Under the pieces are notes generated by a model. The model saw nothing but the letters and a program-made list of their open reading frames with translations. It did no database searches and was not told the DNA's origin. A stretch of DNA of 64,000 nucleotides from Escherichia phage TrudiRoth, in sequence record MZ501109. One strand, 5' to 3'. Both the position numbers and the translations under genes were made by a program. Shown here one piece after another: positions 20,371 through 30,558 of this stretch; positions within the stretch are counted from its first letter, which is position 1; each line of letters opens with the position of its first letter.

Positions 20371-20371
20371 T

Positions 20372-21049
20372 ATGACTAACTATCTCGTAAATGACTTTAA
20401 AAACTGGAAACCTCTGGAATATCTGTGGCTGTTCATAGCGGTTGTCTTCATTAGTTTAGCAAACTATAATGGTACAGCTCTAGATTGGGCTACTGCAATA
20501 ACCAATGTGGTTTGTGTTATTCTGGTTGCAAAAGGACGTGTTTCCAACTATATTTGGGGCTTAGTGGGTGTTCTTACATATGGTATTACAGCTTTAAACG
20601 CAGATCTTTATGGTAACGCTGCACTAAACCTGCTATACTACGTTCCTATGCAGTTTTATGGAATGTACTTATGGCATAAAAATAAGCCAAGTAATCTGCC
20701 GGATGTTCCAACTAAGGTTCTGACTAAAGCCCAAGCTCTGCTGACTCTAGGGATTCTAGCAGTAGCCACGTTAGGGTATGGTAGTTTCTTAGCTACTACG
20801 GCTGATCCATTTCCAATGTTGGATGCATTTACTGCGGTAGGTAGTGTGATCGCTATGTGGCTTATGGTTAAGCAGTATGCCGAGCAGTGGCTGATCTGGA
20901 TTGCTATTAACATTGGTACTGTGTACATTTGGCTTGTAACTGCTCAATCTACAGGTGCATCTTATGCAATCCTAGCAATGTGGCTAGTATTCTTAGGTAA
21001 CTCTATTATGGGAGCCTATAAAGGATACTTTGTACGCGTTAACAAATAA
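20372..21049 (+). CDS. pnuC: nicotinamide riboside transporter PnuC
   Basis: About 7 TM segments, PnuC-like WxxxY-rich profile; overlaps nadR stop; ORF opens at TTG 20357. Confidence 0.75.
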   Translation: MTNYLVNDFKNWKPLEYLWLFIAVVFISLANYNGTALDWATAITNVVCVILVAKGRVSNYIWGLVGVLTYGITALNADLYGNAALNLLYYVPMQFYGMYLWHKNKPSNLPDVPTKVLTKAQALLTLGILAVATLGYGSFLATTADPFPMLDAFTAVGSVIAMWLMVKQYAEQWLIWIAINIGTVYIWLVTAQSTGASYAILAMWLVFLGNSIMGAYKGYFVRVNK

Positions 21050-21058
21050 AGTAGTTAT

Positions 21059-21082
21059 AGCCCTCGCTTAGAGGGCTATTAT
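21059..21082 (+). terminator. terminator-like hairpin after pnuC
   Basis: AGCCCUC-GCUUA-GAGGGCU followed by AUUAUA. Confidence 0.5.
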
Positions 21083-21096
21083 ACAGAAATTTTCAC

Positions 21097-21125
21097 TTGC
21101 TTAATATAGAAAATTTCTGTATAAT
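21097..21125 (+). promoter_or_regulatory. sigma70-type early promoter
   Basis: -35 TTGCTT, 17 bp, -10 TATAAT. Confidence 0.65.
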
Positions 21126-21155
21126 ATATTTATAAATTTGAGAGAGGAATCAAAT

Positions 21156-21452
21156 ATGAAACGCATTGTACTTGCATTGACTCTAGTATCTACTTCTGTA
21201 TTTGCTGCTCCACAACAGGAACTTTGTCAAGTTCAAGTTTGTAATAAGCTAGAACGATTTACTCTAGACATTTGGTCACATATTAAAGATAATATGGGTG
21301 AACAGTGTTTTGATATTGTTCTGCCAAAAGAACAAGCTGTTCCTGGTGCTGTTCTCAGTTCAGAATCACGTTGGTGGCAGGGTTCTTCTATCAATCCAAC
21401 TAAGAAGTCAGTGACACGTATCAAACAAGTATATCAGTGCAATGTTCAGTAA
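21156..21452 (+). CDS. secreted small protein
   Basis: Signal peptide MKRIVLALTLVSTSVFAAP and six Cys. Confidence 0.5.
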   Translation: MKRIVLALTLVSTSVFAAPQQELCQVQVCNKLERFTLDIWSHIKDNMGEQCFDIVLPKEQAVPGAVLSSESRWWQGSSINPTKKSVTRIKQVYQCNVQ

Positions 21453-21460
21453 AATTTCAC

Positions 21461-21489
21461 TTGCTTAATGCCGAAATTTTCTGTATAAT
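21461..21489 (+). promoter_or_regulatory. sigma70-type early promoter (tRNA-Ser/tRNA-Met unit)
   Basis: -35 TTGCTT, 17 bp, -10 TATAAT directly upstream of the tRNA at 21504. Confidence 0.65.
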
Positions 21490-21503
21490 ATATTCATAAT
21501 TTC

Positions 21504-21597
21504 GGAAGATTAACCCTAAAGGTAAGGGAGCTGTTTGCTAAACAGCTAGTAGCTGTGGAAACACGGTGTGCCAGTTCGAGTCTGGCATCTTCCTCCA
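21504..21597 (+). tRNA. tRNA-Ser (anticodon GCU)
   Basis: Acceptor GGAAGAU/AUCUUCC, anticodon stem GCUGU/ACAGC with loop UUGCUAA, long variable arm, T-arm GCCAG-UUCGAGU-CUGGC, CCA. Confidence 0.75.
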
Positions 21598-21602
21598 AAT
21601 TT

Positions 21603-21680
21603 GGTTCTCAAGCTCATTTGGTATGAGCCGTCGCCTCATAAGCGAAAGGTAGGTAGGTTCGAATCCTCCGGGAGCCACCA
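21603..21680 (+). tRNA. tRNA-Met/Ile2 (anticodon CAU)
   Basis: D-stem GCUC/GAGC, anticodon loop CUCAUAA, T-loop UUCGAAU, CCA. Confidence 0.65.
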
Positions 21681-21697
21681 ATTAACTAGGAGACGAT

Positions 21698-21883
21698 ATG
21701 TCTAAGTTTCAGGAATTGAAGCAGGAACTAGAAGAGTGTGCCTGCCCAAAATGCTTCGGAGCAGGTGAATGGAACGATGCTGAACCTGGTGATACATGGT
21801 ATAATACATACGTTTGTACACATTGTAATGGTTCTGGTATTAATCCTGAATGCGGTATTTCTCTAGGTATTGAGCGAGGCTAA
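21698..21883 (+). CDS. zinc-ribbon protein
   Basis: 61 aa with CACPKC...CTHCNGSG. Confidence 0.45.
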   Translation: MSKFQELKQELEECACPKCFGAGEWNDAEPGDTWYNTYVCTHCNGSGINPECGISLGIERG

Positions 21884-22217
21884 GATGGATATTTACACTA
21901 CACCAGCAGTAAACCTGATTGGCTCTTGCCTTGTGCATTTCCGCTTCTTCCAAACGGATGATAGCAAAGAGGAGTATACCTATCCTCTGATGGATTTTCA
22001 GATTGAGGACTTCTTCCGTGAAGTGCGTAATATCTCTGAGAACTTCTATTATGGCATGGATAAGGAAGACTTTGACATTGAGTTCCCTATAATCTCTCGT
22101 TATTTCCTAGAGCAGTCCGACGCTCGGTTTGAGAAGATTGAACACATGGAAGTAGCCTGGGCTATCCAGTTCGAAATTACTGGCTTTGCTCGATACATTC
22201 AAGGTTACGAACTATGA
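21870..22217 (+). CDS. hypothetical protein
   Basis: 115-aa ORF overlapping the previous stop. Confidence 0.45.
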   Translation: MSEAKMDIYTTPAVNLIGSCLVHFRFFQTDDSKEEYTYPLMDFQIEDFFREVRNISENFYYGMDKEDFDIEFPIISRYFLEQSDARFEKIEHMEVAWAIQFEITGFARYIQGYEL

Positions 22218-22309
22218 AATTAAAAGATTATTATATTGGTTGGTTTGTAGGACTAATAGTAGGATTTTCACTGGGCTACAACTTGTATCAACTGATAAAC
22301 TGATTACAT

Positions 22310-22386
22310 GGGGGTGTAATCGAATTGGCATAGGTACTGGACTTAAAATTCAGGTTTTGTGGGTTCGAATCCCACCACCCCTACCA
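22310..22386 (+). tRNA. tRNA with anticodon UAA (Leu?), class I geometry
   Basis: Acceptor GGGGGUG/CACCCCU, anticodon stem CUGGA/UUCAG with loop CUUAAAA, T-arm GUGGG-UUCGAAU-CCCAC, A73, CCA; D-arm poorly paired. Confidence 0.45.
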
Positions 22387-22537
22387 AATTAAGGAAATAA
22401 AATGAAAGCTATTAAGAAAGCACTGCGTAAATTTATGTATTGTCGTTTTCATAGCATCAAGGCTTCAACTAATGGTACTACTTACGATCGCTATGATCCT
22501 AAGTTTGGCTTACATTCTAAATAACTGGAGAAAACAA

Positions 22538-22744
22538 ATGGCTAATCCTGAAATTACGGCACAACGCTTTATGCTGAAAGGAATTATTGCTGAAGCAGGC
22601 ATGACAGAAGAAGTTGCAGATTTTCAAAAGCAATTCCTCAATATTCTCACTCAAGCCAAAGAGCTAGGAGAGAAAGAACATGGCGCGGCTATTATGGCAA
22701 TCACATTGGTTGGGCTTGATCTGGCTGAAGAATCAGGAGTTTAA
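22538..22744 (+). CDS. hypothetical protein
   Basis: ORF opens at 22472; ATG 22538 has RBS GGAG. Confidence 0.4.
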   Translation: MANPEITAQRFMLKGIIAEAGMTEEVADFQKQFLNILTQAKELGEKEHGAAIMAITLVGLDLAEESGV

Positions 22745-22774
22745 CTCCTCCAAGCAGAAATTTTAAAAATGTAC

Positions 22775-22804
22775 TTGCTTTTTACTTAAGATTTCTGCTA
22801 TAAT
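22775..22804 (+). promoter_or_regulatory. sigma70-type early promoter
   Basis: -35 TTGCTT, 18 bp, -10 TATAAT. Confidence 0.6.
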
Positions 22805-22833
22805 AGTTATATAAGTTGATGAGAGGAATCAGA

Positions 22834-23100
22834 ATGTTAAAACGTTTTGCAGCAACTGGTATTGAAAGCTCAGTATGTAAATCCTGGGGTGGTTGGGAAG
22901 GTGAGATCGAGTGGCTTTATTTCTACAATGTAGAACTTCTTCCAGAGATCAAAGCTCAATGTATTGAGGCTGGTATGGCTCCTGATGCTACGGCTGATGT
23001 TGAAATCAGCATGAATAAGCTAGAGGGTCGAGTAGTCACTGTTACTGATGAAGGTGAAGAGGTATTCGAACTTCCATTCACTTTGAAAGTCACTCCTTAA
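22834..23100 (+). CDS. hypothetical protein
   Basis: 88 aa behind promoter 22775-22804 and the conserved leader GATGAGAGGAATCA. Confidence 0.5.
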   Translation: MLKRFAATGIESSVCKSWGGWEGEIEWLYFYNVELLPEIKAQCIEAGMAPDATADVEISMNKLEGRVVTVTDEGEEVFELPFTLKVTP

Positions 23101-23145
23101 TTTGATTAACTGATACAGCACTGAGCAAGTTCTTTAAAATTTGAC

Positions 23146-23174
23146 TTGCTCAGTCCTTCAAAACTTGATATAAT
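23146..23174 (+). promoter_or_regulatory. sigma70-type early promoter (tRNA cluster)
   Basis: -35 TTGCTC, 17 bp, -10 TATAAT; -35 lies inside a 10-bp inverted repeat. Confidence 0.55.
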
Positions 23175-23238
23175 AGTTATCTAATTTGGAAAACATATTT
23201 AAAAGTGTTTAAACTAGTATTTGAATATTTCTAAATAT

Positions 23239-23329
23239 GTTGGATTAGTATCGTAGAGGTAGCGAAGCAGACTGTAAATCTGCCGACTCGGAAGGGTCTC
23301 GGGTGGTTCGACTCCATCATCCAACACCA
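23239..23329 (+). tRNA. tRNA-Tyr (anticodon GUA)
   Basis: Acceptor GUUGGAU/AUCCAAC, anticodon stem GCAGA/UCUGC with loop CUGUAAA, long variable arm, CCA. Confidence 0.75.
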
Positions 23330-23336
23330 AATTTAA

Positions 23337-23413
23337 GTCCTGTTAGACAAACTGGTAAAGTCACTACCCTTTCAAGGTAGGATTTGCGGGTTCGATCCCC
23401 GCACAGGACGCCA
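23337..23413 (+). tRNA. tRNA-Glu (anticodon UUC)
   Basis: Acceptor GUCCUGU/ACAGGAC, anticodon stem CUACC/GGUAG with loop CUUUCAA, T-arm GCGGG-UUCGAUC-CCCGC, CCA. Confidence 0.75.
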
Positions 23414-23421
23414 ATTTCTGC

Positions 23422-23498
23422 ATTCCTAGAGTGTTACTGGACAGCATGTCGGTCTCCAAAACCGTACGGTCTAGGTTCGAGTCCTAGTAGGTTTGCCA
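23422..23498 (+). tRNA. tRNA-like, anticodon CCA (Trp?), poorly paired
   Basis: T-arm CUAGG-UUCGAGU-CCUAG and CCA end are good; anticodon loop CUCCAAA; acceptor and D stems have mismatches. Confidence 0.3.
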
Positions 23499-23504
23499 AT
23501 ATTT

Positions 23505-23579
23505 GCACCTTTAGCTGAGATGGATTAGCGCTTGCCTGAAGAGCTTGAGAGGTTCGTTCGATACGAACAGGGTGCACCA
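23505..23579 (+). tRNA. tRNA-like, anticodon GAA (Phe?)
   Basis: Acceptor GCACCUU/AGGGUGC, T-arm GUUCG-UUCGAUA-CGAAC, CCA; anticodon loop CUGAAGA with two U-U mismatches in the stem. Confidence 0.4.
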
Positions 23580-23596
23580 ATTTGAAGGAGATGCTG

Positions 23597-23869
23597 ATGC
23601 ATCCTGAAAACTTCTTTATTTACTGTGCGGATAAGTCACTGAAACGCAGAATTAACAAAGTCTATCATTATCGTGCTAGTCAACAGCCTTATGTTTATGC
23701 TTTTGATGGAGATTACATCCCACTAGAACAGTTGGCCTGTGATTACATGGTTTTGAAGAACTTTGACGAGACAAAGATCTCAAGCGTTCATAATCGACAG
23801 AACCCGTTAACGTGGAAATATAAGAAGAAAAAGAAAGGCATCAAATTCTTAAAAAATGTAGTTGCTTAA
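23597..23869 (+). CDS. hypothetical protein
   Basis: RBS GAAGGAG then ATG 23597; ORF opens at 23582. Confidence 0.45.
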   Translation: MHPENFFIYCADKSLKRRINKVYHYRASQQPYVYAFDGDYIPLEQLACDYMVLKNFDETKISSVHNRQNPLTWKYKKKKKGIKFLKNVVA

Positions 23870-23890
23870 CCGCTTAAAGTTCTGTATAAT
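23862..23890 (+). promoter_or_regulatory. sigma70-type early promoter
   Basis: -35 TTGCTT, 17 bp, -10 TATAAT. Confidence 0.65.
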
Positions 23891-23919
23891 TATTACATAA
23901 ATTGAACTGGAGAAGCAAC

Positions 23920-24144
23920 ATGACAGAACAAGAATTGAAAGAACGTAAGCTGGTAATGCTTCGCTTACTAAACATTTTCTCTGGTATGGATGGTGGTATT
24001 GACTTCATTCAACTACGCACTTTTGTAGAAGAAGCAGAAGGCGAGGCTATCACTAGGATTCTTAAACATATGGGTTTGTTACTAGATGCTGCTAATGTGG
24101 CTACTCAATATAAACTCGAAGATTTACCGGAGCGTGTTAAATGA
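23920..24144 (+). CDS. hypothetical protein
   Basis: ATG 23920 behind promoter 23862-23890. Confidence 0.45.
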   Translation: MTEQELKERKLVMLRLLNIFSGMDGGIDFIQLRTFVEEAEGEAITRILKHMGLLLDAANVATQYKLEDLPERVK

Positions 24145-24332
24145 AAATGTTAGTTAAATTTAAGTGTTGTGGTTCTGAACATATTTTCACTCGTTATAGA
24201 GAGTTTAAGATGTGTGAGTGCGGTAAATCAGGCTACGATGCTGGAGATGGCTATTATGCTAGATCTATAGGACATTCTAAAGATCTAGAGTTTACTAATC
24301 TCGAAAAGCAAGATAAATCGACCGTTGGCTGA
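24141..24332 (+). CDS. zinc-ribbon protein
   Basis: 63 aa with CCGSEH...CECG; its stop overlaps the 5' end of a tRNA. Confidence 0.4.
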   Translation: MKMLVKFKCCGSEHIFTRYREFKMCECGKSGYDAGDGYYARSIGHSKDLEFTNLEKQDKSTVG

Positions 24333-24394
24333 ATGGCTTAGGCGGAGGCCTGCAAAACCTCCTTATGTGAGTTCGAATCTCATGCGGTCGTCCA
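24319..24394 (+). tRNA. tRNA-Cys (anticodon GCA)
   Basis: Acceptor CGACCGU/GCGGUCG, anticodon loop CUGCAAA, T-arm GUGAG-UUCGAAU-CUCAU, CCA; 5' end overlaps the stop of ORF 24141..24332. Confidence 0.5.
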
Positions 24395-24401
24395 AATTTT
24401 A

Positions 24402-24484
24402 GGGTCGTTAGCCAAGCGGTTTGGCGGTGGACTGTTAATCCATGTCGAAAGACAACGTAGGTTCGAATCCTACACGGCCCGCCA
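24402..24484 (+). tRNA. tRNA-Asn (anticodon GUU) with 13-nt variable region
   Basis: Acceptor GGGUCGU/ACGGCCC, D-stem GCCA/UGGC, anticodon loop CUGUUAA, variable GUCGAAAGACAAC, T-arm GUAGG-UUCGAAU-CCUAC, CCA. Confidence 0.5.
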
Positions 24485-24587
24485 TATTCTGTGTAGAGTT
24501 AAGTAAACCGGTAGCCAACCAGCTATCATTGCTGATATCGAATTCAGTCACAGATACCATTTTTCATTAACAACTGAGGAAATAGAT

Positions 24588-24773
24588 ATGACAACTCGTG
24601 CAATTGCTCGACTAGAAGCTGATCGTGATAATCTGATTAATAATATTAAGGTTCGTGGTAATATTATTAAGGCTCTGAAAGCTGAACTTCTTGAAGAACT
24701 TCAAGGTCAAGTAGAGCGTCGTGAAGCTCTAAAAGAGGTTGAGGAAGCTATCGAAAAACTCAAAACTGAGTAA
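24588..24773 (+). CDS. hypothetical coiled-coil protein
   Basis: 61-aa ORF. Confidence 0.4.
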   Translation: MTTRAIARLEADRDNLINNIKVRGNIIKALKAELLEELQGQVERREALKEVEEAIEKLKTE

Positions 24774-24776
24774 ATT

Positions 24777-25358
24777 ATGCACGGAATATCCTTACCCATT
24801 CCAGGGTTTGAGGAGTACTTAGTAAGTTTGGATGGGTTAGTATTTAGTATCAAATCAAACAAAATACTAACCCAAATAACCAGTAATTACGGATACTTAT
24901 CTATACGTCTCCATAAAAATGGTCAACAGAGAAATACCGGTGTACATAGGATTTTAGCATGTGCATTTAAGAAATTACCAAGTCTAGACTCTGAACTAGA
25001 AGTTGACCATATTAACACAGACATTACTTATTGGGGTCTTAATAACTTACAAGTGCTCACAAAAGAGCAGCATCTAGAAAAGACTTTAAAAGATAAAGGA
25101 TTTAGTAAACTAAACCATGATAATTGTTGTAAGGATTGTGGTAAAGCTATTTCTTTAAAAGCTGAAAAATGTCAGGAGTGCTCTTCACATAAACCAAAAG
25201 ATATCTCTATAACTAAAGAAATAATCGAGGTTACAGTAAGAGAGCTAGGCTGGTCAGGTGCAGGGAGAAAGTTAAGTTATTCAGATAATGGGTTGCGTAA
25301 AAGATACACTTCTTTAGGAGGCAATCCTAAAGAACTTAAAAAGTTAAAGGTACTATAG
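24777..25358 (+). CDS. HNH homing endonuclease (second family)
   Basis: N-terminal GFEEYLVSLDGLVFS, HNH core HRILACAF...VDHINTD...NL and C-terminal Cys cluster; sits inside the tRNA array. Confidence 0.65.
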   Translation: MHGISLPIPGFEEYLVSLDGLVFSIKSNKILTQITSNYGYLSIRLHKNGQQRNTGVHRILACAFKKLPSLDSELEVDHINTDITYWGLNNLQVLTKEQHLEKTLKDKGFSKLNHDNCCKDCGKAISLKAEKCQECSSHKPKDISITKEIIEVTVRELGWSGAGRKLSYSDNGLRKRYTSLGGNPKELKKLKVL

Positions 25359-25423
25359 TCTAACGGTTAGGATACTCCCCTGTCACGGGAGAGGTAGGGT
25401 TTCGATTACCCTTAGTACCGCCA
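25349..25423 (+). tRNA. tRNA-Asp (anticodon GUC)
   Basis: Acceptor GGUACUA/UAGUACC, anticodon stem CUCCC/GGGAG with loop CUGUCAC, T-arm AGGGU-UUCGAUU-ACCCU, CCA; 5' end overlaps the HNH gene stop. Confidence 0.75.
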
Positions 25424-25429
25424 AATTAT

Positions 25430-25506
25430 ACATCCATAGCTCAATTGGTTAGAGCTACCGCCTCTTAAGCGGTAGGTTCTAGGTTCAAGTCCTAGTGGGT
25501 GTACCA
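25430..25506 (+). tRNA. tRNA-Lys (anticodon CUU)
   Basis: Acceptor ACAUCCA/UGGGUGU, D-stem GCUC/GAGC, anticodon stem ACCGC/GCGGU with loop CUCUUAA, T-arm CUAGG-UUCAAGU-CCUAG, CCA. Confidence 0.75.
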
Positions 25507-25719
25507 AACATCAGAGCAGCGTGATGTACTGCAAAGACCCAAAGTCCGGGGTGGACTTCTTGATTCAAAGGAGCAGGCACTAATTATCATTCTAGCGTGG
25601 TGGAGAGGGGACACCAGCTTGCCGAGGGTAGAAGCTCGTTCGATTCGAGTGAAAGAATGGTTCTCGTAAATCCGCACAAGTGATAGCAGGTTCAAGTCCT
25701 GCCTAGATTGACTTATTAT

Positions 25720-25793
25720 GCGTTCGTAGTTAAAAGGTATAATTTTTGGTTGCCAACCAGAAGTTGAGGGTTCGATTCCCTCCGACCGCACCA
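25720..25793 (+). tRNA. tRNA-Gly (anticodon GCC)
   Basis: Acceptor GCGUUCG/CGACCGC (one mismatch), D-stem GUUA/UAAU, anticodon loop UUGCCAA, T-arm GAGGG-UUCGAUU-CCCUC, CCA. Confidence 0.7.
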
Positions 25794-26102
25794 AATCTAT
25801 CAAACCAAGCCTGCGCATTCGTGTAACAACTTGTGCGTCTGTAAGGTGATAGTAAACAAGCCACGGAGTTCCGGCCGTTCAACGTGGTAAAATCTTCTGA
25901 ATAACAGGTCGTGGATACCTCTTTGGAGGCTCAACGGAAACGCAGGAGTGTAAGTAAACGAAAGTTTACTTATTATGTAGGTTCCGATAGATCGGCGGGT
26001 CTATTCTGGCATTTAAGAGAAGTCTCGCAAACTTCTTTGTCAGCCGTGGGGTTGGTAGCCTCCAGGTGGCCTACACAATAAGTAAATTTATTAAAAATTA
26101 AT

Positions 26103-26131
26103 TTGCTATTCTGCTTAATTATCTGTATAAT
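26103..26131 (+). promoter_or_regulatory. sigma70-type early promoter
   Basis: -35 TTGCTA, 17 bp, -10 TATAAT. Confidence 0.6.
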
Positions 26132-26165
26132 ATATTTTATAAAGTGAATAGAAGGAAGTTAACAA

Positions 26166-26405
26166 ATGAAAAAATATTCAGAAGAATTTCTAGAAGATAT
26201 GGATTTACATTACCTGTTAACTTTGGTTTTAGAAGAAAAAATCTATGACCAATTTGATCTAGAAGGTCTTACAAAAGTAGATTGTATTCGTGCCCTTCTC
26301 ACTGTTGAAACTCGCTATTTCGAATGTCAACAGTGTGGTGAAGTTAATGAGTGCTCTTGGGAATGTCCAGAGTGTGGATATGACGATCTGCTTGAAACAG
26401 AATAA
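26166..26405 (+). CDS. zinc-ribbon protein
   Basis: 79 aa with CQQCG...CPECG; flanked by two near-identical tRNA-Lys(CUU) cores. Confidence 0.5.
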   Translation: MKKYSEEFLEDMDLHYLLTLVLEEKIYDQFDLEGLTKVDCIRALLTVETRYFECQQCGEVNECSWECPECGYDDLLETE

Positions 26406-26408
26406 TAT

Positions 26409-26485
26409 CTCCGATTAGCTCAATTGGTTAGAGCTACCGCCTCTTAAGCGGTAGGTTCTAGGTTCAAGTCCTTCATTGGAGACCA
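26409..26485 (+). tRNA. tRNA-Lys (anticodon CUU)-like second copy with degenerate T-stem
   Basis: 58-nt core identical to the tRNA at 25430-25506, but T-stem 3' strand is CCUUC (3 bp only) and the acceptor differs; CCA present. Confidence 0.45.
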
Positions 26486-26491
26486 AACAAT

Positions 26492-26569
26492 TGCGGGTTA
26501 GATCTTTGGTAGAGATCGCTAGTCTCATAAGCTAGAAAGAGGTAGGTTCGATTCCTGCACCCGCTTCCA
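26492..26569 (+). tRNA. tRNA-Met/Ile2 (anticodon CAU), unpaired 1-72
   Basis: D-stem GAUC/GAUC, anticodon stem CUAGU/GCUAG with loop CUCAUAA, T-arm GUAGG-UUCGAUU-CCUGC, U1-U72 mismatch, CCA. Confidence 0.65.
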
Positions 26570-26590
26570 ATTTAATAGAAGGATTTCGAA

Positions 26591-26755
26591 ATGAAATTAT
26601 TTCGTTTAAAAGTAAGTGATTTACGTTCTAGCAAAGATCGTAAGAAGTATCCACTAGCCCATTACGGTAAAGATGAAAACGAAGTGATGGCGGAATTTGG
26701 TATTAATCACCCTTACTTAAAAGTTTATTCTATTAAGGAAGTCTATGCTAATTAA
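26591..26755 (+). CDS. small hypothetical protein
   Basis: 54-aa ORF (below the track cutoff) translated by hand; RBS AAGGA. Confidence 0.3.
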   Translation: MKLFRLKVSDLRSSKDRKKYPLAHYGKDENEVMAEFGINHPYLKVYSIKEVYAN

Positions 26756-27218
26756 TAAAGTTTTAGCTGCCTTAAACCTTCCTGATAACTTCATTATAGA
26801 TGATAAGCTCATAAGAGCTTATATGAGCAAATATAACGAAATTTCAGGTAAAGAAGGTAAGTTAAAAACTTCAGAGTTTAGATTCTGTTATCGAATGGCA
26901 GCCTTAAATCTCTTAAAATATAAAAGGGAGCATAAAATACCTATAACGGAAGGTTTTGTATATGTAATTGGTAATCCAGCATGGCCAGGCATGTATAAAA
27001 TAGGTATGACTATAGATGTGAATGAGAGGTTAACAAGTTATCAAACTTATTCACCTAATAGAGACTACAAGCTATACCATTTCAGATTTTCGTCGGATAA
27101 AAGACGTACAGAGAAAGAATTACATAATCTTCTTAAAGATTATAGAGTATCTGGAGAATGGTTTGAAGTACCTGTACTAGATGCTTTTAAATTATTAGTA
27201 GAAAAATTGGATTGCTAG
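26745..27218 (+). CDS. T5orf172-domain (GIY-YIG superfamily) protein
   Basis: GFVYVIGNPAWPGMYKIGMTIDVNERL matches the GIY..YIG..R pattern. Confidence 0.65.
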   Translation: MLINKVLAALNLPDNFIIDDKLIRAYMSKYNEISGKEGKLKTSEFRFCYRMAALNLLKYKREHKIPITEGFVYVIGNPAWPGMYKIGMTIDVNERLTSYQTYSPNRDYKLYHFRFSSDKRRTEKELHNLLKDYRVSGEWFEVPVLDAFKLLVEKLDC

Positions 27219-27286
27219 CTCAACTGGATAAGAGTAGCGGACCTTTAATCCGTCAGTTCTGGGTTCGAATCCCAGGCAATCCACCA
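27209..27286 (+). tRNA. tRNA-Lys (anticodon UUU) with C at position 33
   Basis: Acceptor GGAUUGC/GCAAUCC, anticodon stem GCGGA/UCCGU with loop CCUUUAA, T-arm CUGGG-UUCGAAU-CCCAG, CCA; 5' end overlaps the T5orf172 gene stop. Confidence 0.7.
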
Positions 27287-27290
27287 AATT

Positions 27291-27364
27291 GCTCGGTTAG
27301 TTTAATGGGAGAACCCCGTCTTTACACGGCGGTTGCGATAGTTCGATTCTATCACCGAGTACCA
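27291..27364 (+). tRNA. tRNA-Val (anticodon UAC)
   Basis: Acceptor GCUCGGU/ACCGAGU, D-stem GUUU/GAAC, anticodon stem CCGUC/GGCGG with loop UUUACAC, T-arm GAUAG-UUCGAUU-CUAUC, CCA. Confidence 0.75.
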
Positions 27365-27382
27365 CTCAACTAAAATAAGGAA

Positions 27383-27625
27383 TTGCAAATGCAATTATCA
27401 TCTAAAGTTCAAGGTTTCTTCGCACATGCAACAGCAGAATTTGCTATTAGCAAGGGTTGGGATTTTGAGCAAGAACTTTCTGAGTTCTATAAAGATATAG
27501 ATATGAATACGCCATACATGGGACTCTCCACTGGTCAAGAGATCACAGAAGGCGATGTGTTCAAGGCAAGTCAAGGTGAGGTAACACCTAGTTTTGCCGC
27601 TTTTTTGGAGTGGCTTCACAATTAA
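27383..27625 (+). CDS. hypothetical protein
   Basis: 80-aa ORF with RBS AAGGAA. Confidence 0.45.
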   Translation: MQMQLSSKVQGFFAHATAEFAISKGWDFEQELSEFYKDIDMNTPYMGLSTGQEITEGDVFKASQGEVTPSFAAFLEWLHN

Positions 27626-27734
27626 AGAAGAAGCTCCAGATGATGATGTATTTATGCAAAGCATGCACTCTGGGAGTTCTGATATGTTATTTGTTAAAGA
27701 TGTACGACATATCCAAGAAGTGGTAAAAACGCAG

Positions 27735-27763
27735 TTGCTTAATGCTTAATTTCTTGTTATAAT
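27735..27763 (+). promoter_or_regulatory. sigma70-type early promoter driving an ORF-free leader
   Basis: -35 TTGCTT, 17 bp, -10 TATAAT; about 320 nt without an ORF before the next tRNA. Confidence 0.6.
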
Positions 27764-28097
27764 ATTTATATAAATTGATGCGAAAATAGCTGCCTAGATA
27801 CCAGGTGTATGACGTCTACACTAGCAGAGCTACCGAAAAAGAGATCCTCAGGATAAACGTCGTAGCAAAATTAGTCTGGTATCCATTAATTTAGTTCACT
27901 AAGGTATTAGCTCGACCTAGGACTGGCTGCCAAAAAGCACGATCCCTACGATTTGGGAGAAGTTCTAGATTAGTCCACTAGATTCAGCGGCAACTGAATA
28001 GTGTATCGGGTTTGTGAAGAGCAGCTATTCTCTACTGGCTAATGTCTGAGGTTAGTACGCACACCGAGCTAATAGCCTTAGTAAACTTAAAGAATTT

Positions 28098-28173
28098 GGG
28101 CGAATAGTGTCAGCGGGAGCACACCAGACTTGCAAGTCTGGTAGGGAGGGTTCGAGTCTCTCTTTGTCCACCA
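28098..28173 (+). tRNA. tRNA, isotype unresolved (Ala-UGC or Cys-GCA)
   Basis: Acceptor GGGCGAA/UUUGUCC, D-stem GUGU/ACAC, T-arm GAGGG-UUCGAGU-CUCUC, CCA; perfect anticodon stem CAGAC/GUCUG encloses only 6 nt (UUGCAA). Confidence 0.45.
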
Positions 28174-28188
28174 AATTAAAAAGAATGC

Positions 28189-28265
28189 GCGCGATTGACG
28201 GAATAGGTATACGTGTCAGCCTTAGAAGTTGAATTTTGAGGGTTCGAATCCCTTGTCGCGCACCA
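28189..28265 (+). tRNA. tRNA with anticodon UAG (Leu?), class I geometry
   Basis: Acceptor GCGCGAU/GUCGCGC, anticodon stem UCAGC/GUUGA with loop CUUAGAA, 5-nt variable loop, T-arm GAGGG-UUCGAAU-CCCUU, A73, CCA. Confidence 0.5.
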
Positions 28266-28390
28266 AATTTGATGGTCAGAGTAAATTAAACCTACTATCT
28301 CGGTTGAGCTGTTTTAATGGATTCGAATCCCAGCGAGGCGTAACTGCCTGGCGTGATAGAGGCATCATTCCACTAACATTGGAAAAACTA

Positions 28391-28621
28391 ATGAAACGAA
28401 AATTAAAAAAGTCTTATATAATTAAGATAAATAAGCTACGAAGTAGGGCAAAAGGATGGCCACTTCGAATATTAATTGCGGATAACCATATTAGATACCA
28501 TGCGGAACAACATCATTACAAACAGTGGGAGTCATACTGTCGCTCAAAAGCAGGTCGTTTAGATGGATCTTATGAGCTTCTATTTGGTAAGAAGCCTACT
28601 AGATTAGCTTTAGGTAAGTAA
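28391..28621 (+). CDS. small basic protein
   Basis: First in-frame ATG of track ORF 28229..28621; the upstream part overlaps a tRNA. Confidence 0.35.
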   Translation: MKRKLKKSYIIKINKLRSRAKGWPLRILIADNHIRYHAEQHHYKQWESYCRSKAGRLDGSYELLFGKKPTRLALGK

Positions 28622-28626
28622 TACTT

Positions 28627-28720
28627 GGAAAAGCAAATAGACTGGCGACTAAACCCGATTGGAAATCGGTTGAGTAATAGCAATATTGCCTTATGGGTTC
28701 AACTCCCATCTTTTCCGCCA
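28627..28720 (+). tRNA. tRNA-Ser (anticodon GGA)
   Basis: Acceptor GGAAAAG/CUUUUCC, anticodon loop UUGGAAA, long variable arm with GCAAUAUUGC hairpin, T-arm AUGGG-UUCAACU-CCCAU, G73, CCA. Confidence 0.7.
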
Positions 28721-28735
28721 AATATTGGAGTATAG

Positions 28736-29251
28736 ATGCTAACACAACAAGAATTAAAATCCGTGTTGTTATATAAACCAGATACTGGAGAGTTTTTCTG
28801 GAAATATAGATCTGATTTAGATAGTCAATGGAATAGTAAATATGCTGGAACTAGGGCAGGATTTATTAATGAACTAGGCTATTGGAAGATAACTCTAGGA
28901 AATACTAGCTGGTTAGCACATCGTCTAGCATTCTTATACATGACTGGGGAAATACCAGATCTAATTGACCACAAGGATCAAGATAAGTCCAATACTAAAT
29001 GGGATAACTTACGAATAGCCACTGTATCACAGAATCAGGCTAATGCTAAATTAAGGGTAGATAATACCTCTGGGTACAAAAATGTAACTTGGCATAAGCA
29101 AAGAAATAAGTGGAAAGTAGAAGTACGTAAAGATGGCAAACTCCATTATGGTGGACTTTTTACAGAACTAGATAAAGCTGTAAATAAAGCTAATAATCTT
29201 AGACGTGAGTTATTCGGGGAATTTGCAGTATATGAAGAGTTTATGGGGTAG
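28736..29251 (+). CDS. HNH homing endonuclease with AP2-like domain
   Basis: Shares AHRLAFLYMTGE, DHKDQDK, NLR and GYKNV motifs with 6460, 39902 and 42058. Confidence 0.7.
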   Translation: MLTQQELKSVLLYKPDTGEFFWKYRSDLDSQWNSKYAGTRAGFINELGYWKITLGNTSWLAHRLAFLYMTGEIPDLIDHKDQDKSNTKWDNLRIATVSQNQANAKLRVDNTSGYKNVTWHKQRNKWKVEVRKDGKLHYGGLFTELDKAVNKANNLRRELFGEFAVYEEFMG

Positions 29252-29341
29252 GTCAATCCAACGGCTGGCGCTGGACTCCGACTTGAAATCGGTTGATCGT
29301 AGTGATACGGTGTAAGGGTTCGATCCCCTTACCTACCTCCA
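29247..29341 (+). tRNA. tRNA-Ser (anticodon UGA)
   Basis: Acceptor GGUAGGU/ACCUACC, anticodon loop CUUGAAA, long variable arm, T-arm AAGGG-UUCGAUC-CCCUU, CCA; 5' end overlaps the HNH gene stop. Confidence 0.7.
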
Positions 29342-29361
29342 ATTAACTATAAGGAATCCTT

Positions 29362-29535
29362 ATGAGCAAAACAGCTACTGTAACAATGAAGGATGGTACA
29401 AAATTTAAAGCATGTCTTCATGAAACAGATAATGGATGGAAGGCTTATTTGCCACACCTAGATTCCACTGGGTATGGAATGACCCAACGTGAAGCTATTG
29501 TTGATGCTTTAAATGAGGCTTCCGCTGGTTTATAA
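29362..29535 (+). CDS. small hypothetical protein
   Basis: 57-aa ORF translated by hand; RBS AAGGAA. Confidence 0.35.
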   Translation: MSKTATVTMKDGTKFKACLHETDNGWKAYLPHLDSTGYGMTQREAIVDALNEASAGL

Positions 29536-29794
29536 AAATTCTTGGAATATGCCGGAATTGGTAGACGGGACTGCCGAATAGGTTTACTAGGAACATCCAC
29601 TCCTAGAAATATACCTTAAAAGCGGTTGAGTTAAATGGTATAACTCATGAAGGTTCAAGTCCTTCTATTCCTTGATACATCAATGGCTCAAAGTGTAACG
29701 GTGCTATTTGATGCTCTTGGCAAGACTTCCCCGACATGCGTTCGGGAGTAAGCTGCTAAGACTAGAGTAGAAGAGTTTCAACAAGACAACGATA

Positions 29795-29869
29795 GCTCTT
29801 AAAGCATTGCTGGCGATGCAGTTGCCTTGTAAGCATCTGAACCGGGTTCGATTCCTAGTGGGAGCACCA
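29795..29869 (+). tRNA. tRNA-Thr (anticodon UGU)
   Basis: Acceptor GCUCUUA/UGGGAGC (two G-U pairs), D-stem GCAU/AUGC, anticodon loop CUUGUAA, T-loop UUCGAUU, CCA. Confidence 0.65.
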
Positions 29870-29885
29870 AAATTAAAAAATTCAT

Positions 29886-29914
29886 TTGCCTTCTCTCTTA
29901 TTTCTTGTTATTAT
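29886..29914 (+). promoter_or_regulatory. sigma70-type early promoter
   Basis: -35 TTGCCT, 17 bp, -10 TATTAT. Confidence 0.5.
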
Positions 29915-29944
29915 ATTTATATAAATTAATGAGAGGGAAACCAA

Positions 29945-30238
29945 ATGAAACGTTATCTTTCTGTTATGTTCCAAACTGGTGGTCAACGCTATACTTATGA
30001 ATTTCCATCTTCTTGGAAGATCAAAGAAGGTGATCAAGTAGTAGTGTTAACACCGCGTGATGGTTTCAAGGTAGTAACGGTTAAGCAAGTATTTCCAAAA
30101 GATCACGAACCATCTAAGGCTATTCAGTACAAGATGATTCATGGTCTGGTACGAAAAGTACCTAGAACAGAAGTCGAAGTAGATAAAACTGGGGAAGCTA
30201 AATACCAGTATACCTCTTACTTAGACGAGTTGTTATAA
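29945..30238 (+). CDS. hypothetical protein
   Basis: 97 aa behind promoter 29886-29914. Confidence 0.5.
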   Translation: MKRYLSVMFQTGGQRYTYEFPSSWKIKEGDQVVVLTPRDGFKVVTVKQVFPKDHEPSKAIQYKMIHGLVRKVPRTEVEVDKTGEAKYQYTSYLDELL

Positions 30239-30444: not shown

Positions 30445-30445
30445 T

Positions 30446-30522: not shown

Positions 30523-30558
30523 AATTTAGGAAGTAAGACTATGCGTCCAGGAAAGTTT

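What the first reader, a model, noticed from the sequence alone, without database searches (positions are those of the whole stretch)
25507..25719. tRNA-like T-arms without acceptor stems or CCA in a 210-nt ORF-free stretch
Two canonical T-arm motifs (GCUCG-UUCGAUU-CGAGU near 25634 and GCAGG-UUCAAGU-CCUGC near 25686) occur, but I could not build acceptor stems or find CCA ends. The predicted - strand ORF 25492..25818 overlaps real tRNAs and is not credible. Candidates are tRNA pseudogenes, missing isotypes (His, Gln and Pro are absent from my set) with non-canonical features, or a distinct small RNA.
Basis: seen in the sequence. Interest (0 to 1): 0.45.

Follow-up and report, generated by a model that had tools for sequence, protein, structure and literature searches.

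The report
Phage tRNA-shaped RNA lacking anticodon
The two stray T-arms belong to one ~122-nt tRNA-shaped RNA, the counterpart of phage T5's long-annotated 'RNA2' of unknown function, whose anticodon loop is replaced by a conserved ~55-nt module. The RNA itself is known, but it belongs to a family found in many unrelated tRNA-carrying phages.

Summary
Both T-arm motifs are real (25634-25650, 25686-25702) and no CCA is encoded. An acceptor stem does exist, however: it encloses both T-arms (25589-25595 with 25703-25709). The window is a T5-like phage. Bases 25588-25712 are 89.6% identical to T5 'rna2', annotated in GenBank AY543070 as a 'tRNA-like stable RNA with unknown functions'. Pattern scans recovered 45 distinct relatives in T5-like, T4-like and jumbo phages, almost always inside same-strand tRNA arrays. 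Covariation supports a full cloverleaf (92-93% of cells paired against 54% in shuffles). Its 7-nt anticodon loop is replaced by a conserved module: GGGYWG, a second true T-arm hairpin (invariant UUCGAUU), a mini-hairpin with a YGG loop, and CGUAA..CCGCA. No anticodon loop can be reconstituted. It is therefore neither a pseudogene, nor a missing isotype, nor an intron-bearing tRNA. The first 81 nt (25507-25587) are a separate, optional, highly conserved spacer module of unknown role. Function is still unknown. The locus lies inside a viable T5 deletion. My working model is a non-decoding tRNA mimic, matured like a tRNA, that presents a second 'elbow' to a tRNA-binding partner. Verdict: a known RNA, newly placed in a broad family that is absent from Rfam.

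The parts
25507..25587 (+). Module A: an 81-nt spacer or small RNA between the CCA end of tRNA-Lys(ctt) and the 5' end of the RNA2 homolog. It is optional and highly conserved, and its role is unknown.
   Evidence: It is found in 132 phage records, 129 of them at >=95% identity. Downstream lies either RNA2 (Salmonella and Escherichia phages) or tRNA-Phe (Klebsiella Sugarlandvirus, phage Eos). Folding energy is no better than in shuffles (z -0.5). Only one compensatory change was seen, at the closing pair of the 25557-25575 hairpin in phage Eos (by eye).
25588..25712 (+). The whole RNA2-family tRNA-like RNA, ortholog of T5 rna2.
   Evidence: blastn of T5 RNA2 (AY543070 32959-33083, minus strand) against the window gives 25588-25712 at 89.6%. 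The family covariance model R1 scores 74.3 bits, E 5.7e-16, at 25589-25713. The family HMM gives E 2e-24.
25589..25595 (+). Acceptor stem, 5' strand (ATTCTAG). C25588 can add an eighth pair with G25710.
   Evidence: It pairs with 25703-25709. All 7 acceptor pairs show changes on both sides across the family, with 87% of cells paired.
25598..25616 (+). D-arm: stem TGGTG/CACCA and loop GAGAGGGGA containing a GG. It is preceded by C8 G9 (25596-25597).
   Evidence: All four D-stem pairs show changes on both sides, with 88-93% of cells paired. Many relatives have a canonical D-arm such as TAGCTCAGTTGGTAGAGC.
25617..25621 (+). Anticodon-stem equivalent, 5' strand (GCTTG).
   Evidence: It pairs with CAAGT 25677-25681. 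All 5 pairs covary and 97% of cells are paired. Examples: GCCTG/CAGGT, AACTG/CAGTT, TCGCT/AGCGA.
25622..25676 (+). The 55-nt module that replaces the 7-nt anticodon loop: CCGA-GGGTAG-AA-[hp1]-GAAA-[hp2]-T-CGTAA-AT-CCGCA.
   Evidence: Invariant or near-invariant blocks are GGG, GTTCGATTC, GGT, CGTAA and CCGCA. Ordinary tRNAs align to model R1 with 58 positions deleted exactly here.
25634..25650 (+). hp1: a second, true T-arm hairpin (stem GCTCG/CGAGT, loop TTCGATT).
   Evidence: Cells are 99-100% paired, 3 of 4 scored pairs covary, and the loop-closing G-C is invariant, as G53-C61 is in tRNA.
25655..25663 (+). hp2: a mini-hairpin GAA-TGG-TTC presenting a YGG triloop (a proposed D-loop-like GG).
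   Evidence: The middle pair covaries (U-A 16-18, A-U 10-12, C-G 2, G-U 2). The closing A-U is near-invariant and the outer pair is weak. Relatives carry longer stems around the same loop: TGGAA-ATGGTG-TTCCA in L228 and ACGTA-TGGTT-TACGT in L053.
25626..25633 (+). GGGTAG plus the next two bases (AA): the 5' strands of the proposed helices P_i (GGGT with ATCC, 25670-25673) and P_j (G25631-C25665, A25632-T25664).
   Evidence: P_j: the base after GGGYWG pairs with the base before CGTAA in 32 of 37 sequences (U-A 15, A-U 8, G-C 7), and 0 of 5000 shuffles reach this. P_i is mostly invariant: one pair shows U-A 17 and C-G 5 but U.U 15, so it is only weakly tested.
25665..25676 (+). CGTAA-AT-CCGCA: the most conserved 3' block of the module.
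   Evidence: It is invariant or near-invariant in 37 to 45 sequences. RNAalifold offers an alternative in which CCG pairs with the YGG loop.
25677..25685 (+). Anticodon-stem 3' strand CAAGT (25677-25681) and variable loop GATA (25682-25685).
25686..25702 (+). The T-arm of the cloverleaf (GCAGG-TTCAAGT-CCTGC).
   Evidence: Cells are 93-95% paired and 4 of 5 pairs covary.
25703..25710 (+). Acceptor stem 3' strand CTAGATT plus the discriminator-position G. It is followed by ACTTATTAT, with no CCA, up to tRNA-Gly at 25720.
   Evidence: NCCA follows the acceptor strand in three relatives (KKP_3711, L011, L296), and CCA abuts it directly in three more (L093, L260, L282).

Best explanation
SHOWN. Bases 25588-25712 (+) encode the ortholog of phage T5 RNA2. 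It is a ~122-125-nt RNA with a complete tRNA cloverleaf: a 7-bp acceptor stem, a D-arm, a 5-bp 'anticodon' stem, a 4-nt variable loop and a T-arm. The 7-nt anticodon loop is replaced by a conserved 55-nt module. That module holds a short helix or helices (P_i, P_j) that continue the anticodon stem, and a three-way junction. The junction carries a second true T-arm hairpin (hp1) and a mini-hairpin with a YGG loop (hp2). The gene sits on the same strand as the surrounding tRNA genes, with no promoter-like or terminator-like site separating it from them.

INFERRED. It is co-transcribed with tRNA-Asp, tRNA-Lys(ctt), module A and tRNA-Gly. It is then released by the tRNA maturation enzymes: RNase P at its 5' end and 3' trimming. 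The tRNA body gives it stability, as in engineered 'tRNA scaffolds'. Without an anticodon loop it cannot decode. By analogy with the tRNA D-loop/T-loop contact, the hp2 GG is proposed to dock on the hp1 T-loop. This would give a second 'elbow' at the far end of a lengthened anticodon arm.

MOST LIKELY MECHANISM (hypothesis, about 0.3 within this explanation). The RNA acts in trans as a non-cleavable, non-decoding tRNA mimic. It would occupy or titrate a conserved factor that recognises tRNA shape or the tRNA elbow. My favoured candidates are tRNA-targeting host defence nucleases or toxins. Alternatives are the ribosome or tRNA-processing and tRNA-modifying enzymes.

Bases 25507-25587 are a separate, optional 81-nt spacer module that forms the 5' leader of this RNA.
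For: Identity: 89.6% over 124 nt to T5 rna2, which GenBank AY543070 labels 'tRNA-like stable RNA with unknown functions'. The neighbouring T5 RNAIV is also conserved in the window.

Structure: 28 pairs in 6 helices. On my own alignment of 37 sequences, 91.7% of cells pair against 53.6% in shuffles, and the covariation score is 0.864 against 0.188 (0 of 500 shuffles; slid controls <=0.17). On the covariance-model alignment of 45 sequences, 92.7% pair and the score is 0.849. The top mutual-information column pairs are the proposed pairs. RNAalifold independently predicts the acceptor, D, anticodon, hp1 and T helices. P_j: 32 of 37 paired, 0 of 5000 shuffles.

tRNA scaffold: ordinary tRNAs in the window align end to end to model R1 with 58 positions deleted at the module. 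Rfam's tRNA model matches relatives L272 (50.6 bits) and L067 (44.8 bits) end to end, treating the ~50 nt as an insertion.

Context: in every locus where a tRNA gene lies within 1.5 kb of the element, all such tRNAs are on the element's strand. No promoter-like or terminator-like site lies on the + strand between 24300 and 26100 outside tRNA-Asp itself, where the one terminator-like match falls.

Breadth: T5-likes, T4-likes (Acinetobacter phage 133), contigs of 200-570 kb and metagenomes.

Accessory role: the viable T5Mos deletion 30661-38625 spans the RNA2 locus (PMC11464382; the coordinate overlap is my inference).
Against: There are no expression or end-mapping data for this phage. 'Stable RNA' rests on a GenBank note for T5, and I could not read the primary papers. 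The window copy has a U.U mismatch in the acceptor stem, C8/G9 instead of U8, and no encoded CCA. It is not recognised by ARAGORN or by Rfam's tRNA model. Thermodynamic folding alone does not recover the cloverleaf and is no more stable than shuffles (z 0.09). My alignment was built by searching for pairings, and the covariance-model alignment is fitted to the structure, so both lean towards it. P_i and the hp2-loop/hp1-loop contact involve invariant bases and cannot be tested by covariation. RNAalifold proposes instead that YGG pairs with CCG. Nothing found here identifies the partner or the function. No protein gene is consistently adjacent. A decoy role does not by itself explain why the module sequence is so conserved.
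Confidence: 0.78

Rival explanations
1. It is a real decoding tRNA gene, perhaps one of the 'missing' isotypes. The ~50-nt insert would be an intron that is removed to give a normal anticodon loop.
For: Rfam's tRNA model aligns relatives L272 and L067 end to end with the insert treated as an intron-like insertion. An annotation pipeline called 'tRNA-Arg(ccg)' over the 5' half of the KKP_3711 copy. The insert sits exactly where tRNA introns sit.
Against: The bases flanking the insert give no conserved U33 or anticodon (CCGA.., GCGA.., ACGA.., CTA.., TT.. on the 5' side; always ..GCA on the 3' side). The insert is the most conserved part of the RNA, which is the opposite of what an intron shows. 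At 55 nt it is far below group I intron size, and Rfam finds no intron or ribozyme family. Bacteria have no tRNA splicing endonuclease (established knowledge). T5 annotates the mature stable RNA as 125 nt, which means unspliced.
Confidence: 0.04
2. The two T-arms are decaying remnants of one or two tRNA genes: pseudogenes with no function.
For: No tRNA finder calls a gene here. The window copy has an acceptor mismatch and no CCA. T5-like tRNA regions are mosaic, and a chimeric tRNA lies nearby at 26409-26485.
Against: Compensatory changes keep 28 base pairs intact across 45 distinct relatives. Motifs are invariant across T5-like, T4-like and jumbo phages. An alternative 'two tandem tRNAs' pairing (CATTCT with AGAATG) is not kept in KKP_3711 or L011.
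Confidence: 0.02
3. It is a miniature tmRNA-like or otherwise aminoacylated RNA that enters the ribosome: a tRNA-like domain plus a PK1-like element.
For: It has the same topology as tmRNA, with non-tRNA sequence inserted between the two halves of a tRNA-like domain. Short motifs are shared with the conserved tmRNA PK1 region..TG-CCGAGGG.. and ..CTCGTAAA..CCGCA. Three relatives encode NCCA after the acceptor strand, and in three more CCA abuts it.
Against: There is no tag reading frame, and ARAGORN finds no tmRNA. Position 3:70 is U-A here and U.G in T5, not G.U. D and anticodon stems are present where SmpB would sit. The family HMM does not hit ssrA, and Rfam's tmRNA model does not hit the family in the PK1 region. 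Covariation favours nested helices, not the PK1-type crossing helix. CCA is not conserved even between near-identical relatives: L296 has ACCA and L279 has TCTA. A lengthened anticodon arm ending in a bulky junction should not fit the decoding site (inference).
Confidence: 0.06
4. It has no trans-acting function. It would be a cis-acting processing or stability element of the polycistronic tRNA precursor, for example an extra RNase P or RNase E entry site or a spacer.
For: It is nearly always embedded in same-strand tRNA arrays. It is dispensable in the laboratory. Module A behaves like a spacer.
Against: A spacer or entry site would not need about 30 invariant bases and a conserved three-way junction across phages whose flanking tRNAs differ completely. 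Several relatives have no tRNA gene within 1.5 kb, although some of those contigs are short. T5 annotates it as an accumulating stable RNA.
Confidence: 0.1

Closest known systems
Phage T5 RNA2 (gene rna2, GenBank AY543070 32959-33083, 'tRNA-like stable RNA with unknown functions')
   Same: It is the ortholog: 89.6% identity over 124 nt, the same strand and tRNA-cluster setting, and the same cloverleaf-plus-module architecture. T5 RNAIV is conserved just downstream in both phages.
   Different: In T5 it follows a ~120-nt unrelated leader after ORF T5.067 and is followed directly by RNAIV. Here it follows tRNA-Asp, tRNA-Lys(ctt) and module A, and tRNA-Gly(gcc) plus about 180 nt are inserted before RNAIV. 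The acceptor pairs 2:71 and 3:70, the D-stem and the P_i pair all differ (T-A here, C-G in T5).
Canonical tRNA (Rfam RF00005)
   Same: It has the acceptor stem, D-arm with GG, 5-bp anticodon stem, short variable loop and T-arm with G53-C61 and TTCRA. It lies in a tRNA operon. Relatives score above Rfam's tRNA threshold.
   Different: The anticodon loop is replaced by 55 nt, so there is no anticodon. No CCA is encoded here, and C8 replaces U8. Neither ARAGORN nor Rfam detects it in this window.
tmRNA (ssrA)
   Same: It is a tRNA-like domain interrupted by a functional non-tRNA insert. Short motifs CCGAGGG and CUCGUAAA..CCGCA resemble the conserved PK1 region.
   Different: It is a third of the size, has no tag ORF, no G3.U70 and no pseudoknot ring, and it keeps the D and anticodon stems. 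There is no profile-level similarity.
Phage T4 species 1 and species 2 RNAs (rnaC, rnaD)
   Same: They are small stable RNAs of unknown function encoded in a phage tRNA cluster, and rnaC ends with a T-arm. A T4-like phage, Acinetobacter phage 133, carries a true member of the present family between tRNA-Gly and tRNA-Cys.
   Different: The family HMM does not detect T4 rnaC or rnaD, so they are not members by sequence.
Engineered 'tRNA scaffold' RNAs (a structured RNA grafted onto the anticodon stem of a tRNA for stable expression in E. coli; from my own knowledge, cf. PMC3753655 listed)
   Same: The design is the same: a foreign structured module replaces the anticodon loop, and the tRNA body provides processing and nuclease resistance.
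   Different: This one is natural, and its module is itself tRNA-like (T-arm plus GG loop).
YrlA / bacterial Y RNA-like RNAs (Rfam RF02553)
   Same: They are non-coding RNAs that include a tRNA-like domain and are also found in phages (from my own knowledge).
   Different: In YrlA the RNA ends form the Ro-binding stem, and the tRNA-like part is internal. Rfam YrlA does not match this RNA.

Membership tests
T5 RNA2-type tRNA-like stable RNA | Sequence homology to T5 rna2 | tested here: met
   89.6% identity, query 1-124 of 125, window 25588-25712, E 4e-43
T5 RNA2-type tRNA-like stable RNA | Cloverleaf whose anticodon loop is replaced by the conserved module (GGGYWG, T-arm hairpin with UUCGAUU, YGG mini-hairpin, CGUAA..CCGCA) | tested here: met
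   All motifs are present at 25622-25676. Covariance model R1 scores 74.3 bits, full length 1-134.
T5 RNA2-type tRNA-like stable RNA | Location inside a same-strand phage tRNA gene array | tested here: met
   It lies between tRNA-Lys 25430-25506 and tRNA-Gly 25720-25793. The same holds in relatives.
T5 RNA2-type tRNA-like stable RNA | Accumulates as a discrete stable RNA of ~125 nt | not testable with these tools
   Only the GenBank note for T5 is available. No RNA data exist for this phage.
Canonical decoding tRNA | 7-nt anticodon loop with U33 and an anticodon | tested here: not met
   55 nt lie between the anticodon-stem strands, and the flanking bases are not conserved as U33 or an anticodon.
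Canonical decoding tRNA | Recognition by tRNA gene finders or models | tested here: not met
   ARAGORN finds none. Rfam tRNA finds none even at E<=10 in the window, although relatives L272 and L067 do match.
Canonical decoding tRNA | Acceptor stem, D-arm and T-arm with G53-C61 and a T-loop | tested here: met
tmRNA | Tag-peptide reading frame with a resume codon | tested here: not met
   ARAGORN reports no tmRNA. The module has no conserved frame or stop codon.
tmRNA | G3.U70 alanine identity pair and an encoded CCA | tested here: not met
   3:70 is T-A here and T.G in T5, and the tail is GACT.
tmRNA | Profile similarity or the PK1 pseudoknot | tested here: not met
   nhmmer finds no hit to ssrA. 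Rfam tmRNA gives no PK1-region hit on family members. Covariation favours nested helices.
tRNA gene with a group I intron | Self-splicing intron core (>200 nt, P1-P9) in the anticodon loop | tested here: not met
   The insert is 55 nt, and there is no Rfam intron match.
tRNA pseudogene | Loss of constraint: unpaired stems and no compensatory change | tested here: not met
   92-93% of cells are paired, and 25 of 28 pairs show changes on both sides.
T4 species 1/2 RNAs (rnaC, rnaD) | Sequence similarity | tested here: not met
   The family HMM against the T4 tRNA region hits only ordinary T-arms, nothing at rnaC or rnaD.
YrlA (Y RNA-like) | Match to Rfam RF02553 | tested here: not met
   There is no hit on the element in the window or in relatives.

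The most novel reading that the evidence does not exclude
RNA2-type RNAs would be an undescribed, ancient and widespread class of phage non-coding RNA: 'two-elbow' tRNA mimics built on a tRNA scaffold. Their conserved distal T-loop/GG junction would bind a universally conserved tRNA-recognising machine. For example, they could act as an uncleavable decoy or inhibitor of anticodon nucleases and other tRNA-targeting immune effectors, or as a modulator of the ribosome or RNase P. On this reading, phages with tRNA arrays would carry not only spare tRNAs but also a dedicated RNA countermeasure. A weaker variant is that the shared CCGAGGG / CUCGUAAA..CCGCA motifs reflect a real link to the tmRNA PK1 region and to trans-translation.
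Probability: 0.3. Interest if true: 0.75.

Novelty: new member of a known kind. Interest (0 to 1): 0.5.

Why it matters
Phage T4 and T5 have long been known to encode small stable RNAs in their tRNA clusters, and the records still label them as of unknown function. This analysis turns one of them, T5 RNA2, from a single curiosity into a family. The family has a defined architecture: a tRNA scaffold with a conserved module in place of the anticodon. It has about 30 near-invariant bases and is found from T5-like to T4-like and jumbo phages. That yields concrete experiments: mutate the second T-loop, the GG loop or the CGUAA/CCGCA block, pull down partners, and test against tRNA-targeting defences. 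It also matters for annotation. The family is absent from Rfam. In public records it is either left blank or mislabelled as a tRNA (tRNA-Arg(ccg) in KKP_3711) or as hypothetical proteins.

Tried and rejected
- ARAGORN and Rfam found nothing in 25507-25719.
- Single-sequence folding of the 213 nt, of module A and of module B gave energies no better than shuffles and inconsistent interiors. It was therefore not used as evidence.
- An alternative 'first tRNA' pairing of CATTCT (25588-93) with AGAATG (25654-59) is kept in T5 and L030 but lost in KKP_3711 and L011, so I rejected it.
- A tmRNA PK1-like crossing helix CGAG/CTCG exists only in the window, T5 and KKP type. It loses to the nested P_j pairing.
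- T4 rnaC and rnaD and T5 RNA1 were tested as members with the family HMM, with no hit.
- A search for a conserved neighbouring protein gene across lineages found only local families, including one shared by a few jumbo-phage contigs that I judged, by eye only, to look like a prohead protease. Nothing RNA-related turned up.
- The genome-contig scan gave 33 hits, of which only two are real members, both on phage-like MAG contigs. The rest are chance matches next to ordinary tRNA T-arms.
- A weak HMM hit at window 5902-5924 lies in a coding region and is chance.
- One viral-contig group (L044 type) matching my second pattern is just two adjacent tRNAs.
- Literature searches found no functional study of T5 RNA2. 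The primary T5 papers and the T4 genome review are not held.
- MAFFT on raw sequences misaligned the 5' third. I therefore used a segment-anchored alignment padded with N, plus a covariance-model alignment.
Full report
**Observation.** The window is a T5-like phage. A 1.15-kb query around the finding matches 502 phage records, mostly Salmonella, Escherichia and Klebsiella Demerecviridae. ARAGORN finds 23 tRNA genes, all on the + strand. The finding occupies the gap between tRNA-Lys(ctt) 25430-25506 and tRNA-Gly(gcc) 25720-25793. The T-loop pattern GTTCRANTC occurs 26 times in the window against 3.9 expected, and two of those matches lie in this gap. No tRNA finder or Rfam family matches inside the gap, even at E<=10. 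No CCA is encoded. The ORFs that overlap it (56 aa on the + strand, 108 aa on the - strand) run into flanking tRNAs and are not credible.

**Two modules.** BLAST of the 213 nt shows that it is composite.
- Query 1-80 (window 25507-25586) occurs alone in about 80 Klebsiella phages.
- Query 82-213 occurs without it in most other T5-likes, including T5 and BF23.
- A 63-nt core (25638-25700) even matches Acinetobacter phage 133, a T4-like phage, between tRNA-Gly and tRNA-Cys.

**Identity of the 3' module.** GenBank AY543070 (phage T5) annotates a misc_RNA 'rna2 / RNA2, tRNA-like stable RNA with unknown functions' at 32959-33083 on the minus strand. Its sequence begins CATTCTAGCG and ends CTAGGATGACA. 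It aligns to window 25588-25712 at 89.6% identity. The same record lists RNA1, RNAI, RNAIII, RNAIV, RNA2H, RNA3 and RNAX, and six of those seven (all but RNAIII) have homologs in the window.

**The acceptor stem exists.** Comparing the window copy with T5, Enterobacter phage KKP_3711 and several viral contigs shows a 7-bp stem that encloses both T-arms and covaries.
- ATTCTAG/CTAGATT in the window (one U.U mismatch).
- ATTCTAG/CTAGGAT in T5.
- GTTCTAG/CTAGAAC followed by GCCA in KKP_3711.
- TACGGGG/TCCCGTA followed by TCCA in L011.
- ATACTGT/ACAGTAT in L030.

**Family.** Four exact-pattern scans of viral contigs, one of species-representative genomes and one of metagenomes recovered members from several groups. 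These were T5-likes, T4-like phages (L002/L007, L045, L087, L140), contigs of 204-571 kb (L042, L054, L057, L089, L111, L254) and many short environmental contigs. In bacterial genomes only two real members appeared, both on phage-like MAG contigs. Segment-anchored parsing gave 55 distinct sequences. A covariance model built from 37 of them (R1) finds 45 matches at E<1e-7 in the loci searched. It finds exactly one strong match in the window (74.3 bits at 25589-25713). In every locus where a tRNA gene lies within 1.5 kb of the element, all such tRNAs are on the element's strand.

**Structure.** The family is a tRNA cloverleaf with the following parts in the window:
- acceptor stem, 7 bp;
- two bases, then a D-arm. 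In many lineages this is canonical (for example TAGCTCAGTTGGTAGAGC in L272), and in T5-likes it is TGGTG-GAGAGGGGA-CACCA;
- a 5-bp stem at the anticodon-stem position (GCTTG 25617-21 with CAAGT 25677-81);
- a 3-5-nt variable loop;
- a T-arm and the acceptor 3' strand.

On my alignment A2, 91.7% of 989 cells pair against 53.6% in shuffles. The covariation score is 0.864 against 0.188 (0 of 500 shuffles), and partners slid by 1-3 columns give at most 0.17. On the covariance-model alignment A3 the values are 92.7% and 0.849. A structure-blind mutual-information ranking puts the proposed pairs at the top. RNAalifold on A3 independently predicts the acceptor, D, anticodon, hp1 and T helices. One caveat applies: A2 was built by searching for pairings and A3 is fitted to the model, so both lean towards the structure. 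The many 7/7 and 5/5 perfect stems at fixed tRNA geometry are nevertheless far beyond what that search freedom allows.

**The module.** In place of a 7-nt anticodon loop there are about 50 nt with a constant plan: 1-5 nt, GGGYWG, 0-4 nt, hp1, a linker (often U-GNRA-G), hp2, 0-3 nt, CGUAA, 2-3 nt, CCGCA.
- hp1 is a true T-arm. Its loop UUCGAUU is invariant, its closing G-C is invariant as in tRNA G53-C61, and its stem is 99-100% paired with three covarying pairs.
- hp2 is a 2-4-bp stem around a YGG triloop. Its middle pair covaries (U-A, A-U, C-G, G-U). More distant relatives have longer stems around the same AUGGU loop.
- The base after GGGYWG pairs with the base before CGUAA in 32 of 37 sequences, with 0 of 5000 shuffles reaching this. 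With the invariant G6-C this forms helix P_j and makes hp1, hp2 and P_j a three-way junction.
- GGGY can pair with the two bases before CC, plus CC itself (helix P_i). This is mostly invariant and only weakly tested: U-A 17, C-G 5, U.U 15.
- RNAalifold offers a competing idea, that YGG pairs with CCG. I cannot decide between the two from invariant bases.

My working picture is inference by analogy with the tRNA D-loop/T-loop contact. The anticodon stem is prolonged by P_i and P_j and ends in a junction where the hp2 GG docks on the hp1 T-loop. That would form a second 'elbow'.

**Relation to tRNA and other families.**
- tRNA: ordinary tRNAs of the window align end to end to R1 at 20-32 bits, with 58 model positions deleted exactly at the module. 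Conversely, Rfam's tRNA model matches relatives L272 (50.6 bits), L067 (44.8) and L279 (27.3) end to end with the module as an insertion. The scaffold is therefore tRNA-derived.
- Intron-bearing tRNA: this does not fit. The flanks give no U33 or anticodon, the insert is the most conserved part, and it is far too small for a group I intron. T5 also records a 125-nt mature RNA.
- tmRNA: this does not fit either. There is no tag frame, no G3.U70 and no profile similarity. Short motifs (TG-CCGAGGG, CTCGTAAA..CCGCA) do resemble the conserved PK1 region of tmRNA, and I leave that resemblance unexplained.
- T4 rnaC and rnaD and T5 RNA1 are not detected by the family HMM.
- Some relatives (L079/L095, L053, L228) carry the hp1+hp2 double hairpin in the variable region and keep an anticodon-arm-like hairpin. 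This suggests the double hairpin is the functional unit.

**Function.**
- What is shown: the RNA sits in tRNA operons, and no promoter-like or terminator-like site separates it from neighbouring tRNAs, apart from one terminator-like match inside tRNA-Asp itself. NCCA follows the acceptor strand in three relatives, and CCA abuts it in three more. Yet CCA differs even between near-identical copies: ACCA in L296 and TCTA in L279. No protein gene is consistently adjacent.
- What the literature adds: a T5 variant lacking 30661-38625, which spans the RNA2 locus, is viable. The T5 fragment that suppresses PARIS (31885-32870) does not include RNA2 (PMC11464382; the coordinate overlap is my inference).
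- Conclusion: RNA2 is an accessory RNA. It cannot decode. I infer that it is matured by RNase P and 3' trimming like its neighbours and is stabilised by its tRNA body.
- Hypothesis: it most likely acts in trans by presenting the conserved distal junction to a partner that recognises tRNA shape. I favour an uncleavable decoy or inhibitor for tRNA-targeting host defences (about 0.3). Alternatives are action on the ribosome or on tRNA-processing enzymes, or a purely cis processing role. None of these is demonstrated.

**Module A (25507-25587).** It is present in 132 records, 129 of them at >=95% identity. It always lies directly after the CCA end of a tRNA or tRNA-like RNA (tRNA-Lys here and in phage Eos), and directly before either RNA2 or tRNA-Phe. 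It has no folding-energy signal. Only one compensatory change was seen, in the 25557-25575 hairpin. The tRNA maturation cuts on both sides would release it as an ~80-nt fragment. Whether it is a spacer or a small RNA in its own right cannot be told from sequence.

**Verdict.** The element is the ortholog of a known T5 RNA of unknown function. What appears not to be on record is the family-level picture. It is absent from Rfam 15, and I found no paper in the held library. That picture is a tRNA scaffold with a conserved anticodon-replacing module, spread across very different tRNA-bearing phages.

Noticed in passing
window 26409-26485: The gene ARAGORN calls tRNA-Lys(ctt) is a chimera. Its acceptor strands (CTCCGAT.. 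/ ..ATTGGAG) are those of T5 tRNA-Pro, while its interior is identical to tRNA-Lys(ctt) at 25430-25506. The junction leaves the T-stem mismatched (CTAGG against CCTTC). Relatives carry tRNA-Pro at this position.
   Followed up: partly
window 24487-24559, 25975-26077, 27905-28017, 29541-29684, 29685-29779, 16605-17262: These are homologs of the other T5 'stable RNAs with unknown functions' annotated in AY543070: RNA3, RNAIV, RNA2H, RNA1 (also tRNA-like), RNAI and RNAX. Identities are 80-99%. None is recognised by ARAGORN, and none of those lying within the Rfam-scanned region (17000-31500) matched an Rfam family.
   Followed up: partly
window 16660-16734: A tRNA-like element lies inside the RNAX homolog (T-loop GTTCGAATC at 16711). 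It aligns to model R1 as a plain tRNA at 23.5 bits but is not called by ARAGORN. My Rfam scan started at 17000 and did not cover it.
   Followed up: no
window 25794-25974, especially 25855-25895: An ORF-poor ~180-nt stretch lies between tRNA-Gly and the RNAIV homolog. It contains the block AAGCCACGGAGTTCCGGCCGTTCAACGTGGTAAA. The same block recurs, with small changes, downstream of tRNA-Phe in Klebsiella phage vB_Kpn13-P1 (L298 ~931-968). It may be another conserved RNA element (by eye).
   Followed up: no
L298 607-700 (Klebsiella phage vB_Kpn13-P1): A 94-nt unannotated RNA-like stretch lies just upstream of module A and ends in ACCA. Its terminal stem GGGACUU/AAGUUCC has a G3.U70 pair and A73, the alanine/tmRNA-type identity set (by eye).
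   Followed up: no
L301 (E. coli ssrA) 345-385 versus window 25620-25676: Short motifs are shared between the conserved tmRNA PK1 region (CAUG-CCGAGGG...CCUCGUAAA-AAG-CCGCA) and the RNA2 module (CUUG-CCGAGGG...UCUCGUAAA-U-CCGCA). Profile searches find no similarity, and the family's covariation does not support a PK1-type fold.
   Followed up: partly
L079/L095, L053, L228, L189, L060: These more distant tRNA-like RNAs carry the same T-arm-like hairpin plus an AUGGU-loop hairpin. In some of them (L079/L095, L053) the pair is placed in the variable region and an anticodon-arm-like hairpin is kept.
   Followed up: partly
L004 1284-1353 (KKP_3711); records PMBT22 and SuperGirl: Public annotations over this RNA are wrong or empty. 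KKP_3711 has a 'tRNA-Arg(ccg)' called on the 5' half of RNA2. 'Hypothetical protein' CDSs are drawn across the region in PMBT22, SuperGirl and others. Most records have no feature at all.
   Followed up: partly
window 28098-28173: ARAGORN reports a tRNA of undetermined identity with a 4-base anticodon (tgca), at the position where T5 has tRNA-Ala(UGC) before tRNA-Leu(UAG).
   Followed up: no
window 24777-25358: A 193-aa HNH homing-endonuclease-like ORF ends 10 nt inside tRNA-Asp (25349-25423). This is typical of the mosaic tRNA region, which is rich in homing endonucleases.
   Followed up: no
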